12,621 nucleotides of DNA from a virus (IMGVR_UViG_2872180393_000003:1-12621), one strand, 5' to 3'. Shown: positions 7,248 through 12,621, counted from the first letter of the stretch. The notes: a model not told the origin generated them from the sequence alone. Numbers and translations: made by a program.

Positions 7248-7718
7248 TTACGGAGCGATATGAGACGCGCCCGCGTCTTTTTTCATATCGTTTGCACAGT
7301 CACATTCGCGATTTATGGTGGGCTGTGTGGGGGAGCCGAAACCGATAACCATTTCTTTGTTGAAGAGACAAAGCGAGCAGGCCAGTCCGATCGCGGTCCA
7401 ACTGAGCCCCATTTCACGGGATTTTTCGGTAATACCATTCTCCCGATTGCTCCAGCGTTCCATAATCCAGTGGATCCACTCCTCCTGCTTAGGGAAGAGT
7501 AAAAACGGAATGGTCACCGGCAGGCCATAATCAATATTACGCGGGTCCGTTGTCATGCCCCAGCCGATAATGAACTGAGCCGGGTTGGTACGGTAAAACT
7601 GTTTTAGTGCAGGCAATATTTCAGGATTCTGGCGAATGCGCTGTAGGCGTTCCATCCGCCATTCAAAAACCATCTGGTAATCAGGATGTTTAAAATCGAA
7701 GGGGAATGGTAACGGCAT
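7248..7718 (-). pseudogene. phage terminase large subunit, N-terminal fragment only
   Basis: ATG 7718 overlaps the terminase small subunit stop. The N-terminal 125-130 aa look terminase-like (...[13 protein letters not shown]...), but the ORF stops after 156 aa where terminase large subunits are 400 aa or more. The last ~30 codons run through junction sequence containing a hairpin. Confidence 0.65.
7263..7283 (+). terminator. orphan terminator-like hairpin with T6 tail, plus strand
   Basis: AGACGCG-CC-CGCGTCT followed by TTTTTT. There is no plus-strand gene upstream, and it is not terminator-like on the minus strand (A-run precedes the hairpin). Confidence 0.35.
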
Positions 7719-7720
7719 AC

Positions 7721-8278
7721 TTAGCCCATCATTTTTCTATACACCTCTGCGGCCTGCTCAGGCGTTAATTTGGTAATTTCTGTTCTGACTGGTCCTCCGT
7801 CAGCGCCAGTCACTTCATTTTTGACGTTGTCTTTAAACGCCTGAACAGAAACATGACGCCCAAGCAACTCAAGGTTTTTAACCTTATCAGGCCATTTGAT
7901 TTTCTTCAGAAGTGCGGCGCTATCTGCGGATACCATCTCCACGACATCCATTCCTGATAGCGTTGTGCGCCATACCTTCTTAGGCCAGTCTTTAATGGGC
8001 TTTAGCTCACCGTTTTGCAAGAGAATGTCGAGCACATCCATCTGGTCGATTTCAACCAATCTACGAAGAACATAGGCGGCATCTATACCCGTCTGCTCAA
8101 CGCGGGCGGATTTAAGTTCAGCAACGAATTTTTGAACATTAACATTTGCTAATAATCGAGATGCCTGCTCATTGGCGGTCTTCTCGCTGTAGCCCGCCCT
8201 GATAGCTGCCTGTGTGCCGTTCAGATCTTTCAGGTACTCACGGGCAAACAGCTCTTGTTTGTCGGTGAGCTTTGCCAT
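7721..8278 (-). CDS. phage terminase small subunit (P27-type)
   Basis: 185 aa [43 protein letters not shown]..., the N-terminal signature of P27-family small terminases. GGAG lies about 9 nt upstream of the ATG. Confidence 0.85.
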
Positions 8279-8300
8279 TATTTGTGCTCCGTTTATCCGT

Positions 8301-8380
8301 TAAAAGGGATATCAGTTAAGTTATCCCGTGTAGGGTATAAGCCATTATCAAGCCCACCAGTAGATGGGCTTTGTAATGGC
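8301..8380 (-). other. structured intergenic region upstream of terS: compound inverted repeat plus a hairpin with T-run
   Basis: 8341-8380 is GCCATTA-caa-AGCCCA-8 nt-TGGGCT-tga-TAATGGC (7-bp outer and 6-bp inner stems). 8306-8327 is GGGATA-10 nt-TATCCC, followed on the minus strand by TTTT. Confidence 0.4.
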
Positions 8381-8637
8381 TACTTCGCTTTTGCTTCCGC
8401 TCGCTTACGCCGGCGCTCTTCTTTCCTCTCGGCTTTTGCCATGTCCATGAATGTCTGCATGATCGAGTTCCGCATCATGTAGCTAACAAAGTGATGATTG
8501 ACACAGCCGTTGAGGCGCAGCTGCTCGCCAAACTCATCCACCGAGGCCAATGCTTCCATCATGCCCTTCTCGCCTTTCATGAACTCTGAGAAGTCGCGCC
8601 CCGCTCTGGAGGCGCATTCAATGACACGATCACTCAT
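8380..8637 (-). CDS. small basic protein of unknown function, co-transcribed with the KilA-N gene
   Basis: 85 aa with a lysine/arginine-rich C-terminus (KAERKEERRRKRAEAKAK). Its ATG overlaps the KilA-N stop (ATGA). No function recognised. Confidence 0.5.
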   Translation of the reverse strand: MSDRVIECASRAGRDFSEFMKGEKGMMEALASVDEFGEQLRLNGCVNHHFVSYMMRNSIMQTFMDMAKAERKEERRRKRAEAKAK

Positions 8638-9131
8638 CCCGGAAGCCCGGGGATCGTTATCTGCAGCTGGTTAGCCAGGGAGTTAATCTCAGCGACCAAC
8701 ACTGGCTTCGTATAGCGCCATGCCGCCAGCCCTTGTCCACAGAAGTTCGCCATATCTTTTTTCTGATCAAACTCATGACACTTCATATTGAGCTGCGCAC
8801 TTAAGCTGTTGCGATGCTGAAGTTCTCCGGTGAAGTAGTCATCCAGGACTTTATAGGCTGCATATTTAAATCCGGGGTTTAGCCATGCTGCATAATCATA
8901 AGCAACAAACTTCCCGCCATATGTTCCACCGTGTACACCGCGCTCAGTAAAAACCACAGATTCGTGGTTTTTCTCCAGCTCGGCTAAGAACTCTTTGGTC
9001 TGCTTGTTTCGCAGGTAGTGGTACGGAGATTCAGATTCACTTTTACCACTGGCTTTCCACATATCAGTGAGGCAGATCATTCCTGATTCATCAACACGGA
9101 TCGGTGTATTAAAAAGCGTGATTGCTTTCAT
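8634..9131 (-). CDS. KilA-N domain protein
   Basis: 165 aa whose N-terminus (MKAITLFNTPIRVDESGMICLTDMWKASGKSESESPYHYLRNKQTKEFLAEL) looks like a KilA-N/APSES-type DNA-binding domain. Sits between the lysis cassette and terminase, a common cargo position. Confidence 0.65.
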   Translation of the reverse strand: MKAITLFNTPIRVDESGMICLTDMWKASGKSESESPYHYLRNKQTKEFLAELEKNHESVVFTERGVHGGTYGGKFVAYDYAAWLNPGFKYAAYKVLDDYFTGELQHRNSLSAQLNMKCHEFDQKKDMANFCGQGLAAWRYTKPVLVAEINSLANQLQITIPGLPG

Positions 9132-9336
9132 GGCGTCTTTACCTTTTAGAAAGATGAGCCTGTTCGCACAGAAAAGCCGTCCCCGAGATGGTCGCCACCA
9201 TATACGGCAATTCTCAGGCTCAGCTTTCTGAAAGACTCGGGGTTTATATGCGCTGCGATGCGCGGTTTACTGCGGACATATAAAAGCCCCGCAAGTGCGA
9301 GGCTCATTAAATGGACTTTGTGATTTGCAAAAAAAT

Positions 9337-9804
9337 TTATTTCAGGCACTGAGTCCTGATGTACTCCTGAAGCATTCTCAATGCTGTCTGGTCGCTGATG
9401 ATTCCGTCCCGGATACCGAGAACGTTTCGTCCAGCAACTGGAGAGAGTTCGACGGTGGCATCATTGCCCATGCCGGAGGCGCTGGAGGTTTCGGCTGAGG
9501 ATGGCACAGGGCATTTTCCTTTGACGAGCACCCGACCACCATTATCAAGCTTGCGCCGAAGAGCATCATTTTCAGCTTTCGCATTGGCTAACTCCTTCGT
9601 GTATTTAGCATCGAGTGCATCAGCAGCACGCTGGCGCTGCTGCATGTCAGTAATGGTTGCGTTCGCCAGCTTCAGTTCTCTTGCGTTTTTGTCGCGCTGC
9701 TCTTTGTAGGTAATGGCGTTATCACGGTAATGATTAACAGCCCATGACAGGCGGACGATGATGCAGATAACCAGAGCGGAGATAATCGCGGTGACTCTGC
9801 TCAT
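9337..9804 (-). CDS. Rz: Rz (i-spanin)
   Basis: 155 aa [26 protein letters not shown]... with an N-terminal TM segment and a coiled-coil-like body. ATG overlaps the endolysin stop (ATGA). The track ORF from 9816 is over-extended. Confidence 0.8.
9378..9584 (-). CDS. Rz1: Rz1 (o-spanin lipoprotein) embedded in Rz in the +1 frame
   Basis: [21 protein letters not shown]... with a lipobox (VVGC) and a proline-rich mature part ([11 protein letters not shown]), lying wholly inside Rz. Confidence 0.65.
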
Positions 9805-10298
9805 TGCTGCCCCCACAAACAGACTTCACGCTCAATCTCATGACGGGTCATCAGCCCTTTCCATTGCTTACCGCCAGCATATGTCCAGCGACGTAGCTGG
9901 TCACATGCGCCTTTGATATCGCCCTGGTTTATTTTGCGAAGAAGCGTCGATGTTCTGAAATTGCCAGCGCCCACGTTGTAAACGAACGAGTAAAGAGCGC
10001 CGCGCGTTGTTTCCGGTATATCGACTTTGATGTACGGGTTAATTTGTCTGGCGACAGTGGCAAGGTCTTTATTCAGGAGAGCTTTGCATTCTGCTTCGGT
10101 ATACGTTTTACCAGGCATGATGTCTTTTCCGGTGTGTCCGTGACATACAGTCCATACACCAATGATATCTTTGTATGGTATGTAGCTGACACCTTCCAGA
10201 CCATCGTTACCACCTGGGCCAGTGATTAACACAGATGCTATAGCAACAGCCCCGCCACCAATAGCAACTGCAACAGCCTTGCGTAATGATGGCGACAT
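9801..10298 (-). CDS. R: SAR endolysin (phage 21 R-type lysozyme)
   Basis: 165 aa [57 protein letters not shown]...: a glycine/alanine-rich signal-anchor-release segment followed by a lysozyme core. Confidence 0.9.
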
Positions 10299-10513
10299 TA
10301 TTCACCTCTCGCAGCCTTACGCTTGTCTTCTCTTAATTTGAAATACAGATTCGTCAGATAAGTCAGAAGCCCCAGAAGCAGACTTCCCAGCACACCAATC
10401 GCAGCCCACTGTGATGGACTGACCTGATCCAACCACTGCAAAAACCAGTAGCCGGCACTGCCGGCGGAGGTGCCGTAGGCAATGCCCGTTGAAATTTTGT
10501 CCATGGATTTCAT
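10298..10513 (-). CDS. S: class II holin (phage 21 S-type) with dual-start motif
   Basis: 71 aa [71 protein letters not shown]. Two in-frame starts (M1, M4) as in the S21 holin/antiholin pair. GGAGGTGAGG Shine-Dalgarno upstream; the stop overlaps the R start (TAATG). Confidence 0.9.
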
Positions 10514-10629
10514 AGCCTCACCTCCGCAAATAACGGATGGCGTAGTTCTTATATTGGGAAGGGAAAAAAAAGGCCGCAGCGTAACTGTCACTGATGAATT
10601 CAGGATAGCCAGTGGCTACGGCTCAGTTA

Positions 10630-10705
10630 TGGTGCTGGTTAACGGACTTGAACCGCTACCCATTCGCTTACAAGGCGACTGCTCTACCATTAGAGCTAAA
10701 CCAGC
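10630..10705 (-). tRNA. tRNA-Thr (anticodon UGU), 76 nt with encoded CCA
   Basis: Manual cloverleaf: 7/7 acceptor pairs, D stem GCTC/GAGC, anticodon loop CTTGTAA, T arm AGCGG-TTCAAGT-CCGTT, discriminator A plus CCA. One mismatch in the anticodon stem. Confidence 0.7.
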
Positions 10706-10710
10706 ATATT

Positions 10711-10785
10711 TGGCGGGACAGCGTGGACTCGAACCACGATAAGAAGGTTAACAGCCTTCCGTAATGACCTTTATACGACTGACCC
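10711..10785 (-). tRNA. tRNA-Asn-like (anticodon GUU), with mismatches; possibly a pseudo-tRNA
   Basis: Anticodon arm GAAGG-CTGTTAA-CCTTC and T arm CGTGG-TTCGAGT-CCACG are canonical, ending G-CCA, 5 nt upstream of tRNA-Thr. The acceptor stem has one T-T mismatch and the D stem one mismatch. Confidence 0.5.
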
Positions 10786-10974
10786 AAATAAAAAATCTCG
10801 AAAGCAGGCTCTATTCCTATGTGCTCTCGAGTTTATGATGCGCATGTCAGTGCGCTTAGCGAAAAACGCCGTAAACCCTCGCCCGACAGGGCGGGGAGCA
10901 GTCACAACTTAAAGATGAGGTGGGTAAAAAACCGAAAGAATGTGAACGGATATAAACCTGCCATTCTTGAGTCA

Positions 10975-11003
10975 AATTTACCCAACTTTATTCAAAAAGT
11001 CAA
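10975..11003 (-). promoter_or_regulatory. late promoter pR' (lambda-like), with overlapping qut-type region
   Basis: Minus strand reads TTGACT - 17 bp - TAAATT followed by TGACTCAAG, very close to lambda pR' as recalled, about 43 bp downstream of the Q stop. A weak hairpin plus T6 run (10926-10968) follows, a possible short tR'. Confidence 0.6.
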
Positions 11004-11045
11004 TATCATGCCGTTAAGATGTTGCCATCCGTGGCAATCATGCCG

Positions 11046-11422
11046 CTAACGTGTGACCGCATTCAAAATGTTGTCTGCGATTGACTCTTCTTTGTGGCAT
11101 TGCACCACCAGAGCGTCATACAGCGGCTTAACAGTGCGTGACCATGTGGGTTGGGTGAGGTTTGGGATTAGCATCGTTACAGCGCGATATGCTGCACTTG
11201 CTGGCATCCTTGAATAGCCGACACCTTTGCATCTTCCGCACTCTTTCTCGACAACTCTCCCCCACTGCTCTGTTTTGGCTATATCAACTGCCAGACCTGT
11301 TCCGTGGCAATCTCTGCATCTTGCGCCCGGCGTCGCGGCACTACGGCAATAATCCGCATAAGCGAATGTTGCGAGCACTTGCAGTACCTTTGCCTTAGTA
11401 TTTCCTTCGAGCTTTGCCACAC
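11046..11422 (-). pseudogene. Q: late antiterminator Q (lambda type), C-terminal ~125 codons only; N-terminus replaced by the IS600 end
   Basis: ...AKLEGNTKAKVLQVLATFAYADYCRSAATPGARCRDCHGTGLAVDIAKTEQWGRVVEKECGRCKGVGYSRMPASAAYRAVTMLIPNLTQPTWSRTVKPLYDALVVQCHKEESIADNILNAVTR matches the lambda Q C-terminal zinc-finger region as I recall it. The frame runs into the IS600 right end at 11423 with only a TTG start inside the IS. Confidence 0.75.
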
Positions 11423-11464
11423 TGAGGTGTACTGGCAATAGCGGACACTACCATTTGTTCTTTT

Positions 11465-12283
11465 TTAAGCAGCCATCTGATGATATTTTTCCCTGAAGGC
11501 TGCCGGGGAGATATTCCCCAGACGAGAGTGACGACGCTGACGATTGTAGAAAATCTCAATGTATTCCCGTATTACTGAGATGGCTTCATCCCGGTTATTA
11601 AAACGATAGTGGCTCAGGCTCTCATTTTTCAGCGTTCCCCAGAAGCTTTCCATCGGAGCGTTGTCGTAACAGTTACCTTTACGCGACATTGATGTTTTCA
11701 GACCAAACTGCTCCTGTATGACCCGGTAATCGTATACGCAGTACTGTGAACCTCGATCAGAGTGGTGGATTAGCCCGGCAGGTGGGCGCTGGCTCCTGAG
11801 CGCCATAAACAGGGCTTTACCTGTCAGCTCTTTTGTCATTCGCTCTCCCATGGCGTAGCCGACAATTTCGCACGTATAAACATCTTTGATGCCAGCGAGG
11901 TACAACCATCCCTCCTGTGTGGCAACATACGTCAGGTCCGCCACCCAGACCTGATTTGGTGCTGTAGGAGCGAACGTCTGGTTCAGCAGATTTGGCGCAA
12001 CTGGCAGATTGTGGTTCGGGTTCGTAGTCGCTCTGAACTTGCGTTTCTGCTTACAGCGTAGCCTTAGCTCCTTACGAAGACGTGCCAGTCGGTCACGACC
12101 AACGATGATGCCATTCTCTGCCAGCTCCGTCTGGAGCCGCCGGGTTCCATATGTTTCGCGAGTGCGGATATGTGCCACCTTAATCTCCAGTTTTAGCCGC
12201 TCATCACTTTGTTTTCTGTCTGAGGGTTCATGCTGTACCCGGTTGTAATAACCGCTCCTGGATACACCAAATACCTGACACAT
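11465..12283 (-). CDS. IS600 OrfB (copy 2; W15R and A183V relative to copy 1)
   Basis: 272-aa ORF identical to copy 1 OrfB except for two substitutions. Confidence 0.9.
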   Translation of the reverse strand: MCQVFGVSRSGYYNRVQHEPSDRKQSDERLKLEIKVAHIRTRETYGTRRLQTELAENGIIVGRDRLARLRKELRLRCKQKRKFRATTNPNHNLPVAPNLLNQTFAPTAPNQVWVADLTYVATQEGWLYLAGIKDVYTCEIVGYAMGERMTKELTGKALFMALRSQRPPAGLIHHSDRGSQYCVYDYRVIQEQFGLKTSMSRKGNCYDNAPMESFWGTLKNESLSHYRFNNRDEAISVIREYIEIFYNRQRRHSRLGNISPAAFREKYHQMAA

Positions 12284-12318
12284 CGCTTCAATGGGAAATT
12301 GTTGTCGCCATTGTTCGA

Positions 12319-12621
12319 TTAACGCGTATTTTTCAGCGACTCCTGTGCAAAATACGCTGTTGCTTTTTTTAATATATCTCGCTCAAGGCGAGCTTCATTT
12401 AACGCCTTACGCAGTTGCAGAATTTCAGATTCCAGTTCAGCCACCGTGCGGGAACCAGGAGTACCGAGCCCTTTTCTGGCGGCGGTAACCCATTGTCCTA
12501 AAGTGCCTTCAGGAAGGGATAATCGGGAAGCGCCTTCACTGATCGAAAGTTGATTTTCAAGAACCGTTCTGACAGCTTCGGCTTTGAACTCTTTAGAGTA
12601 ACGTTGGGTTTTTCTGCTCAT
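12319..12621 (-). CDS. IS600 OrfA (copy 2); start codon is the last triplet of the window
   Basis: 100-aa ORF identical to copy 1 OrfA. The T7 run at 12364-12370 is the complement of the frameshift site. Confidence 0.9.
   Translation of the reverse strand: MSRKTQRYSKEFKAEAVRTVLENQLSISEGASRLSLPEGTLGQWVTAARKGLGTPGSRTVAELESEILQLRKALNEARLERDILKKATAYFAQESLKNTR

What the first reader, a model, noticed from the sequence alone, without database searches (positions are those of the whole stretch)
10926..11422. Intact lambda-like pR' and early terminator, but the Q antiterminator has lost its N-terminus to IS600
The promoter hexamers and spacing are nearly those of lambda pR', and a hairpin plus T6 run lies about 40 nt downstream of the predicted start. 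The only Q protein available is a C-terminal fragment with a TTG start inside the IS. Late transcripts should therefore terminate early, leaving holin, endolysin and spanins silent unless a Q is supplied in trans by another prophage.
Basis: partly seen in the sequence, partly recalled or inferred. Interest (0 to 1): 0.45.

Follow-up and report, generated by a model that had tools for sequence, protein, structure and literature searches.

The report
IS600-truncated lambda Q late-gene switch

Summary
All features are on the minus strand. The observation largely holds. IS600 (from 11423) has removed codons 1-83 of a 207-codon lambda-type Q. The remnant (11422-11046) is residues 84-207, 122/124 identical to lambda Q. 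The lost part includes the torus, residues 1-44, needed for antitermination. pR' is intact, with lambda's own hexamers and spacing (TTGACT-17-TAAATT, 11003-10975). Its Q-binding site is identical to that of viable phages HK446 and mEp506.

The T6 at +38..+43 (10931-10926) exists. Its hairpin is weak: -6.5 kcal/mol, z -1.7, 7 AU-rich pairs, a 19-nt loop, and 4 nt before the T-run. In 8 of 18 related loci it reads CAG+T5. The homologue of lambda's mapped tR' lies outside the flagged range. Its stem is at 10831-10797 (-14.4 kcal/mol, z -4.0) and its T6 at 10795-10790, predicting a roughly 180-nt 6S-like RNA. Two tRNA genes, another hairpin with T8, and an intact holin/endolysin/Rz/Rz1 cassette follow.

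The same leader occurs with full-length Q in the other related prophages where Q could be read, so it is a natural variant. The locus is 100% identical over 2.2 kb to Shigella boydii 600690. Silence of the lysis genes without a Q supplied in trans is plausible but untested. This is ordinary prophage decay.

The parts
11423..12621 (-). IS600 (IS3 family) copy b. It is cut by the window end; about 65 nt are missing. orfA is at 12621-12319 and orfB at 12283-11465. It is transcribed in the same direction as Q'.
   Evidence: It is 99.5% identical to an annotated IS600 in E. coli FDAARGOS_943. The terminal inverted repeat was fixed by comparison with the complete 1264-bp copy at 1917-3180. rve/HTH_21 domains are present.
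11046..11422 (-). Q' remnant: codons 84-207 (plus 2 nt of codon 83 and the stop) of a 207-codon lambda-type antiterminator Q. Codons 1-83 are absent from the window.
   Evidence: PF03589 matches at E 1.3e-36. It aligns to residues 84-207 of PDB 7UBM and 47-170 of 4MO1. It is 124/124 identical to the intact Q of L004 and 122/124 identical to lambda-type Q. The Q N-terminal coding DNA has no hit in the window or in L006.
11436..11438 (-). TTG inside the IS600 terminal repeat that opens the 130-aa fusion ORF (MPVHLS + Q 84-207). No obvious Shine-Dalgarno sequence lies upstream.
   Evidence: ORF list. The same 130-aa product is called in NCBI assemblies. The upstream sequence was read.
10975..11003 (-). 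pR' late promoter: -35 TTGACT (11003-10998), a 17-bp spacer, and -10 TAAATT (10980-10975). The Q-binding (qut) 21-mer TTTTGAATAAAGTTGGGTAAA lies at 10997-10977.
   Evidence: One search found the site. The alignment to lambda-type HK630 and to HK446/mEp506 shows identical hexamers. The 2 spacer mismatches to lambda are shared with viable phages that GenBank annotates as 'PR' with 2bp mismatch'.
10963..10968 (-). Predicted transcription start (+1 = A at 10968) and a sigma-dependent pause element, -10-like AAGAAT (lambda has AACGAT).
   Evidence: +1 was placed by homology. The same rule applied to HK630 gives a 194-nt RNA ending in the tR' T-run. Pausing itself was not tested.
10926..10968 (-). 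It is a 5' hairpin at +1..+33 (AAGAAUG/CAUUCUU), a UCGG spacer, and T6 at +38..+43 (10931-10926).
   Evidence: Folding gives -6.5 kcal/mol and z -1.72, with 13/200 shuffles as stable. The site reads CAG+T5 in 8 of 18 related loci. Lambda has an analogous 5' hairpin (-9.1 kcal/mol) with no T-run.
10860..10905 (-). A 46-nt insert in the leader (+64..+109). It holds a GC-rich hairpin followed by TTTACGGCGTTTTT, and resembles the right end of ISEc46 (IS200/IS605 family).
   Evidence: It is absent from leader variants L005 and L013. It matches about 400 E. coli chromosomes at roughly 91% identity. In the one match inspected, it lies just after the ISEc46 tnpA gene. It folds at about -20 kcal/mol.
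10790..10831 (-). tR' homologue: a stem-loop at +138..+172 (10831-10797), one A, then T6 at +174..+179 (10795-10790). This is the predicted end of a roughly 180-nt 6S-like RNA.
   Evidence: It aligns with the 3' half of lambda tR' (TAGAGCCTGC...TTTCGgGATTTTTTAT). It folds at -14.4 kcal/mol with z -4.04 and 0/200 shuffles as stable. Substitutions among relatives keep pairing (U-A, U.G, G.U). The element is retained in all leader variants.
10711..10785 (-). tRNA-Asn(GUU) gene, starting 4 nt after the tR' T-run.
   Evidence: ARAGORN. Rfam tRNA, 55.3 bits. The same gene is annotated in phages mEp506 and Kapi1.
10630..10705 (-). tRNA-Thr(UGU) gene.
   Evidence: ARAGORN. Rfam tRNA, 63.2 bits.
10564..10621 (-). 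Second terminator-like signal just before the holin: a strong hairpin (10621-10574) followed by T8 (10571-10564).
   Evidence: It folds at -19.4 kcal/mol with z -3.69, and the scan partly called it. The hairpin is conserved in lambda. The T-run length varies among relatives, and T8 also occurs in L025, which has intact Q.
9337..10513 (-). Intact lysis cassette. P21-type class II holin at 10513-10298, lysozyme-family endolysin at 10298-9801, Rz at 9804-9337, and embedded Rz1 lipoprotein at 9584-9378.
   Evidence: Pfam PF04971, PF00959 and PF03245. Alignment to the L004 cassette is ungapped and 99.6% identical, with 0-2 amino-acid differences per protein. The Rz1 translation has a VVGC lipobox.

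Best explanation
This is a lambda-type Q/pR'/tR' late-gene control cassette in a heavily decayed lambdoid prophage beside mlrA. The sequence is essentially identical to Shigella boydii 600690.

Shown from sequence and homology:
- An IS600 insertion removed codons 1-83 of Q.
- pR', its Q-binding element and the -10-like pause element are intact.
- The leader from +10 to about +150 is a rare mosaic variant, unrelated to lambda's 6S body.
- The leader rejoins lambda homology at the 3' half of tR'.

Inferred:
- RNA polymerase still starts constitutively at pR' (10968) and pauses at the sigma-dependent element.
- With no functional Q to load, it terminates mainly at the tR' homologue. The stem is 10831-10797 and the T6 is 10795-10790, giving a roughly 180-nt 6S-like RNA.
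- The weak +40 hairpin/T6, the ISEc46-like GC hairpin, and the hairpin+T8 before the holin may add minor or backup stops.
- The two tRNA genes and the intact holin/endolysin/Rz/Rz1 genes are therefore silent. They would be expressed only if a lambda-specificity Q is supplied in trans by another prophage or an infecting phage.
- The 130-aa Q' ORF is very unlikely to be active. It lacks the torus (residues 1-44), the segment 45-60, and residues 61-83 of the four-helix body.
For: - Q truncation and IS600 boundary.
- N-terminal residues 1-44 form the antitermination torus, and deletion of 1-38 abolishes antitermination; the body is residues 61-113 plus 153-207 (PMC9388147).
- pR'/QBE identity with lambda and with viable phages HK446 and mEp506.
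- The +1 rule was validated on lambda-type HK630.
- tR' homologue: alignment; -14.4 kcal/mol, z -4.0, 0/200 shuffles; the stem ends 1 nt before T6; substitutions preserve pairing; it is retained in all variants, even where an HNH gene is inserted.
- Early element: weak, z -1.7, 4-nt spacer, variable among relatives.
- Three of the ten minus-strand T>=6 runs in the 12.6-kb window fall in the 455-nt stretch from pR' to the holin.
- The same leader occurs with full-length Q in the related loci where Q could be read: 207 aa in 12, and long open frames of 219 and 251 codons in two more.
- No other promoter-like site was found between tR' and the holin.
- The prophage is otherwise defective. It has no immunity region, a split integrase, a truncated terL, and an inverted late block.
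- A sister genome carries a further IS600 in the holin gene.
Against: - No transcript data exist, so all termination sites are predictions.
- The tR' homologue is weaker than lambda's (-14.4 against -24.6 kcal/mol).
- A rough d'Aubenton-Carafa-type score, using a formula recalled from memory, is negative for it and positive only for lambda tR'. Some Q-independent read-through is therefore possible.
- The simple terminator scan called neither the early element nor the tR' homologue. It also misses lambda's genuine tR', so it does not discriminate.
- The hairpin-to-3'-end distance at the early site (about 8-10 nt) is geometrically compatible with some termination.
- The rest of the host genome was not searched for another lambda-type Q.
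Confidence: 0.72

Rival explanations
1. One reading: the hairpin plus T6 at about +40 (10968-10926) is the operative early terminator. pR' transcripts would be about 40-nt RNAs ending near 10926.
For: The T6 run exists, and a hairpin at +1..+33 is predicted in both the minimum-energy and centroid structures. The stem end lies 8-10 nt from a 3' end placed within the T-run. The hairpin arms are invariant in all 18 loci that carry this leader.
Against: The hairpin folds at only -6.5 kcal/mol, and 13/200 shuffles do as well. It has 7 AU-rich outer pairs, a 19-nt loop, and a UCGG spacer. Standard terminators have the hairpin immediately followed by a 7-9-nt U-tract (PMC9388147). Eight of 18 relatives read CAG+T5 at this site. 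Lambda has an equivalent 5' hairpin with no T-run, so the hairpin needs no terminator role. The leader keeps a separate, better tR' homologue.
Confidence: 0.13
2. Leaky cassette: none of the leader signals terminates efficiently. The tRNAs and lysis genes would then be transcribed at a low constitutive level from pR', or by read-through from IS600 orfAB, independently of Q.
For: The tR' homologue is about 10 kcal/mol weaker than lambda's and scores negative on a rough terminator index. IS600 orfAB points the same way as Q'-pR'. The lysis proteins are still intact.
Against: Four hairpin/T-run signals lie in series before the holin, including a -19.4 kcal/mol hairpin with T8. Constitutive holin and endolysin expression would be harmful. 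Intact relatives with the same leader keep a full-length Q, which implies that Q is needed.
Confidence: 0.1
3. The 130-aa Q' ORF (TTG 11438) is translated and retains a function. It could antiterminate, or it could occupy the QBE as a dominant-negative that blocks activation by a Q supplied in trans.
For: The ORF is open and is called as a gene in public assemblies. It keeps the zinc-ribbon arm and the helix-turn-helix part of the body with no amino-acid change against an intact Q. A Q lacking residues 1-38 still binds the QBE (PMC9388147).
Against: The product lacks the torus, so it cannot antiterminate. It also lacks residues 61-83 of the four-helix body, so its folding is doubtful. The start is a TTG with no evident ribosome-binding site. 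Perfect sequence conservation is equally explained by a recent insertion.
Confidence: 0.03

Closest known systems
Bacteriophage lambda late control cassette (Q, pR' with QBE and sigma-dependent pause element, 6S RNA, tR')
   Same: The Q C-terminal 124 residues are 122/124 identical. The pR' hexamers and 17-bp spacing are identical. The QBE lies in the same place. A -10-like element sits at +1..+6. The 3' half of tR' and its T6AT tail are homologous. The short leader RNA has a similar predicted length (about 180 against 194 nt).
   Different: Q lacks codons 1-83 because of IS600. The QBE differs at 2 positions and the pause element at 2 (AAGAAT against AACGAT). The leader from +10 to about +150 is unrelated in sequence and contains a T6 at +38 and an ISEc46-like insert. 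The tR' stem is shorter (-14.4 against -24.6 kcal/mol). tRNA genes and a P21-type lysis cassette follow, instead of lambda S-R-Rz.
Phages HK446, mEp506 and Kapi1 (lambda-type Q, pR', tR', then tRNA-Asn and tRNA-Thr)
   Same: They share the same QBE variant and the same tRNA pair starting 4 nt after the tR' T-run, at 96-98% DNA identity over Q and the tRNAs.
   Different: They have intact Q, a lambda-type 6S leader and pause element, and a lambda-type holin. No record in the 50,697-record phage collection carries the window's leader variant.
Prophages in E. coli FDAARGOS_943/944 and IMG/VR contigs L017-L019, L022 and L025
   Same: L004 (the FDAARGOS_943 prophage) is 99.6% identical over Q', the leader, the tRNAs, the holin, the endolysin and Rz. 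All these loci share the same leader, including the +38 T6 and the 46-nt insert. L004 also shares the nin/HigBA region.
   Different: Their Q is full length at 207 aa. In L004 the late block is collinear with the nin region and continues into a full set of head genes.
Shigella boydii 600690 chromosome (CP049278)
   Same: It is 100% identical over window 10424-12621 and has the same Q'/IS600 junction and the same nin/terL' joint.
   Different: It has a third IS600 inserted in the holin gene at about window 10424-10426.

Membership tests
Lambda-type Q antitermination cassette | Full-length Q protein (PF03589), including the N-terminal torus-forming residues 1-44 | tested here: not met
   Only residues 84-207 remain. 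The N-terminal coding DNA is absent from the window. The torus requirement comes from PMC9388147.
Lambda-type Q antitermination cassette | Q DNA-binding body and zinc-ribbon arm homologous to lambda Q | tested here: met
   PF03589 matches at E 1.3e-36. PDB 4MO1 and 7UBM match at E about 1e-80, with 122/124 identity. Body residues 61-83 are missing.
Lambda-type Q antitermination cassette | pR' promoter directly downstream of Q, with the QBE between -35 and -10 | tested here: met
   TTGACT-17-TAAATT lies at 11003-10975. The QBE has 2 mismatches to lambda and is identical to that of viable phages HK446 and mEp506.
Lambda-type Q antitermination cassette | Sigma-dependent pause element (-10-like) in the initially transcribed region | tested here: inconclusive
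   AAGAAT at +1..+6 is closer to TATAAT than lambda's AACGAT. Pausing cannot be tested with these tools.
Lambda-type Q antitermination cassette | Intrinsic terminator between pR' and the late genes | tested here: met
   The lambda tR' homologue at 10831-10790 folds at -14.4 kcal/mol with z -4.0, and its stem abuts T6. Termination activity was not tested.
Lambda-type Q antitermination cassette | Late (lysis) genes downstream on the same strand | tested here: met
   Holin, endolysin, Rz and Rz1 are intact.
   It folds at -6.5 kcal/mol with z -1.7. It has AU-rich pairs, a 19-nt loop, a 4-nt UCGG spacer, and U6. The criterion is as stated in PMC9388147.
IS600 (IS3 family) | An element of about 1264 bp with terminal TG...CA inverted repeats and overlapping orfA/orfB (rve integrase core) | tested here: met
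   Copy a is 1264 bp (1917-3180). Copy b has identical ends up to the window edge. Both are 99.5-99.7% identical to an annotated IS600.
IS600 (IS3 family) | A 3-bp target duplication flanking a simple insertion in Q | not testable with these tools
   The other IS end lies beyond the window. In S. boydii 600690 it abuts host genes (ycaO-focA-pflBA), so the original flank has been rearranged away.

The most novel reading that the evidence does not exclude
The hairpin, 4-nt spacer and U6 at +1..+43 of this rare leader variant may be a functional non-standard stop signal. It could be an attenuator that sets basal pR' output. Alternatively, it could be an example of the 'hairpin-spacer-U-tract' terminators that Yin et al. 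(PMC9388147) proposed might respond differently to Q-modified polymerase.
Probability: 0.04. Interest if true: 0.45.

Novelty: already known. Interest (0 to 1): 0.12.

Why it matters
It matters little beyond annotation. It gives a clean, well-delimited example of how IS600 expansion in Shigella disables a prophage lysis switch while leaving the promoter, terminators and lysis genes intact. Such a cassette could still be fired by a lambda-type Q from another phage.

Two minor points of interest:
- The late-leader variant is rare. It was found in 19 of 5,426 complete E. coli genomes and in no sequenced phage isolate.
- That variant carries an IS200/IS605-end fragment, and in some relatives an HNH endonuclease gene is inserted in the tR' hairpin region.

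Tried and rejected
1. The exact Q'/IS600 junction was searched in the GTDB representative genomes and gave no match. The source lineage was found instead through the exact 130-aa ORF.

2. The variant leader was searched in the phage collection. Only the ISEc46-like 44-60 nt piece matched, in two unrelated phages.

3. I considered that the T8 before the holin reflects selection to silence lysis after loss of Q, because two of the ten differences from L004 create it. This was rejected: L025 has the same T8 with an intact Q.

4. I considered a simple inversion with the Q N-terminus just beyond IS600. This is not supported. In S. boydii 600690 the IS is followed by host genes, and no Q N-terminal DNA lies within 20 kb.

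5. The consensus terminator scan was tried as a discriminator and rejected. It misses lambda's genuine tR' as well.

6. The d'Aubenton-Carafa-type score was computed. It rests on a formula recalled from memory and on modern energy parameters, so it is used only for rank order.

7. Covariation analysis of the early hairpin was uninformative, because its arms are invariant in all 18 loci.

Full report
**Layout.** All relevant features lie on the minus strand, so positions count downwards.
- The window starts in the host gene mlrA (1-648).
- A split integrase follows (723-1671).
- A complete IS600 lies on the plus strand (1917-3180).
- Then come a replication-gene remnant, a DnaB-type helicase, NinB, Dam, NinE and a HigB/HigA-like pair (3181-7206, plus strand).
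- An isrK-family sRNA hit lies at 7207-7283.
- On the opposite strand sits an inverted late block. It holds terL' (about the first 129 codons), terS, a KilA-N gene, Rz/Rz1, endolysin, holin, two tRNA genes, the late leader, pR' and Q'.
- A second IS600 runs off the window end.
- There is no immunity region. The prophage is a remnant.

**The observation.**
- IS600 boundary. The complete copy is exactly 1264 bp, running from TGAGGTAGCC... to ...CACCTCA. The second copy's end, TGAGGTGTACTGG, starts at 11423. Both copies are 99.5-99.7% identical to an IS600 annotated by NCBI in E. coli FDAARGOS_943.
- Q remnant. Window 11422 aligns with nucleotide 248 of an intact 624-bp Q gene in that prophage (L004). 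Codons 1-82 and the first base of codon 83 are therefore gone.
- The remaining 124 codons are identical to that Q and 122/124 identical to lambda-type Q. They match Pfam PF03589 at E 1.3e-36. They align to residues 84-207 of the full-length lambda Q chain in PDB 7UBM.
- A TTG at 11438, inside the IS terminal repeat, opens a 130-aa ORF. Gene callers have recorded that ORF in several assemblies. I see no ribosome-binding site upstream of it.
- The Q N-terminal coding DNA is not elsewhere in the window.

**The promoter.**
- The consensus scan finds one site, TTGACT-17-TAAATT at 11003-10975. One hit is no more than shuffles give (1.8 expected).
- What makes it real is homology. The stretch from Q' through the -10 element is about 96% identical to lambda and its relatives. 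The hexamers and spacing are lambda's own.
- The 21-nt qut/QBE stretch differs from lambda at two positions. It is identical to that of the viable phages HK446 and mEp506, whose GenBank records annotate it as pR' 'with 2bp mismatch'.
- I placed +1 at A 10968 by homology. The same rule on lambda-type HK630 gives an RNA ending in the tR' T-run at 194 nt, the known 6S length (the 6S length is from my own knowledge).
- The -10-like pause element at +1..+6 reads AAGAAT, against lambda's AACGAT.

**The leader is a mosaic.**
- After +9 the sequence loses all similarity to lambda's 6S RNA body. It regains similarity at TAGAGCCTGC...TTTCGAGATTTTTTAT, the 3' half of lambda tR'.
- No record in the 50,697-record phage collection carries this leader variant.
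- It occurs in 19 of 5,426 complete E. coli genomes and in 14 IMG/VR contigs.
- In every related locus where Q could be read it is long and open. Q is 207 aa in 12 loci. Two more have open frames of 219 and 251 codons with a different N-terminal sequence.
- The leader is therefore a natural, functional-looking alternative and not a by-product of decay.
- Three sub-variants exist:
  - Type A includes the window. It has a 46-nt insert at +64..+109.
  - Type B lacks the insert.
  - Type C lacks the insert and has an HNH endonuclease gene inserted after TAGAGCCTG. A lambda-type tR' 3' arm follows at about +861.

**Which signal is the terminator?** Four T-runs of five or more lie between +1 and the holin.
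T6 lies at +38..+43 (10931-10926). It is preceded by a hairpin at +1..+33 with seven AU-rich outer pairs and a 19-nt loop, and then by UCGG. The fold is -6.5 kcal/mol with z -1.72, and 13 of 200 shuffles fold as well. Standard terminators have the hairpin immediately followed by a 7-9-nt U-tract (PMC9388147), and this one does not. In all eight type C loci the site reads CAG+T5. Lambda has an equivalent 5' hairpin (-9.1 kcal/mol) with no T-run. The hairpin is thus a shared leader feature that needs no terminator role.
- The inserted GC hairpin. It folds at about -20 kcal/mol and is followed by UUUAC and then U5.
- The tR' homologue. Its stem spans +138..+172 and folds at -14.4 kcal/mol with z -4.04 and 0 of 200 shuffles as stable. 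One A and then T6 at +174..+179 (10795-10790) follow. Differences among relatives in this stem keep pairing: U-A in the window, U.G in L004, G.U in L017. Every variant retains the 3' arm plus T6AT.
- A conserved hairpin before the holin. It folds at -19.4 kcal/mol with z -3.69 and is followed by T8 at 10571-10564.

Three of the ten minus-strand T>=6 runs in the whole window fall in this 455-nt stretch.

The caveats are as follows.
- The tR' homologue is about 10 kcal/mol weaker than lambda's.
- A rough terminator index, using a formula from memory, is positive only for lambda tR'.
- The simple scan flags neither candidate. It also misses lambda's real tR', so it does not discriminate.

The +40 element is at most a minor contributor.

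**Why Q' cannot work.**
- In lambda Q, residues 1-44 fold into the torus that narrows the RNA-exit channel.
- A deletion of residues 1-38 abolishes antitermination while leaving QBE and RNA polymerase binding.
- Residues 45-60 fold on loading.
- The four-helix body is residues 61-113 plus 153-207 (PMC9388147).
- Q' starts at residue 84. It lacks all of the first two parts and the first 23 residues of the body.
- I infer that it is inactive and probably misfolded.

**Downstream genes.**
- tRNA-Asn starts 4 nt after the tR' T-run, and tRNA-Thr follows. The same arrangement is found in phages HK446, mEp506 and Kapi1.
- The P21-type holin, the endolysin, Rz and Rz1 are full length. They show 0-2 amino-acid differences from the L004 versions.
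- No other promoter-like site was found between tR' and the holin.

**Source and context.**
- The 130-aa ORF led to CP049278, the chromosome of Shigella boydii 600690.
- That chromosome is 100% identical over window 10424-12621 and 99.98% identical over 4863-10426.
- It carries a third IS600 inside the holin gene.
- It has host genes (ycaO-focA-pflBA) on the far side of the Q-proximal IS600.
- The lineage is therefore still accumulating IS600 hits and rearrangements in this remnant.

**Mechanism, committed.**
- pR' fires constitutively.
- Polymerase pauses at the sigma-dependent element.
- No Q loads.
- Transcription ends mainly at about 10790, with backup stops before the holin.
- The tRNAs and lysis genes stay off unless a Q of lambda specificity is supplied in trans.
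- The sequence features are shown. The transcriptional behaviour is inferred from the lambda paradigm.
- Trans-activation is plausible in principle. In all, 3,098 of 5,426 complete E. coli genomes have at least one match to the Q'-through-holin-start query, up to six places per genome. Most listed hits include an antitermination gene. I could not search the rest of the S. boydii genome.

**Verdict.** The named terminator is probably the wrong one. The whole is a textbook cassette undergoing ordinary IS-driven decay, so interest is low.

Noticed in passing
window 10860-10905 (-): A 46-nt insert in the late leader holds a GC-rich hairpin followed by TTTACGGCGTTTTTCG. It is about 91% identical to a short intergenic sequence in roughly 400 E. 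coli chromosomes. In the one example inspected, that sequence is the right end of ISEc46 (IS200/IS605 family), next to ptrB. The insert is absent from otherwise identical leaders (L005, L013).
   Followed up: partly
L010, L014-L016, L020, L021, L023, L024 (about +170 to +860 of their late leaders): Related prophages carry an HNH endonuclease gene inserted after TAGAGCCTG, inside the tR' hairpin region. The gene therefore sits between pR' and a lambda-type tR' 3' arm at about +861.
   Followed up: partly
window 7331-7341: A rearrangement joint fuses the nin/HigBA/isrK side (plus strand) to terL' at about codon 129 (minus strand) through the microhomology AGCCGAAA. The whole Q'-to-terL' block is inverted relative to the replication and nin genes.
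   Followed up: partly
window 7207-7283 (+): An Rfam isrK (Hfq-binding sRNA) hit scores 70.6 bits and lies beside the HigB-like toxin gene. In intact relatives antirepressor genes follow it, but here the rearrangement joint cuts it off from them.
   Followed up: no
window 1917-3180 (+) and 723-1671 (-): A complete 1264-bp IS600 replaces everything between the integrase and the replication genes, so cI, cro and N are absent. The integrase is split into two overlapping ORFs, probably by a frameshift.
   Followed up: partly
L006 11015-12279 (window about 10424-10426): Shigella boydii 600690 has the same locus with a third IS600 inserted in the holin gene. Host genes ycaO-focA-pflBA lie directly beyond the Q-proximal IS600, which implies a large IS600-mediated chromosomal rearrangement.
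   Followed up: partly
window 10564-10571 (-): The T-run after the conserved pre-holin hairpin varies among relatives. It is T8 in the window and in L025 (which has intact Q), TTCTTTT(T) in other relatives, and TTTTAC in lambda. Two of the ten differences from L004 create the T8.
   Followed up: yes
window 6498-7206 (-): A Gp49/HigB-like toxin gene and an HTH antitoxin gene form a pair embedded in the nin region. The pair is conserved in the intact relatives L004 and L005.
   Followed up: no
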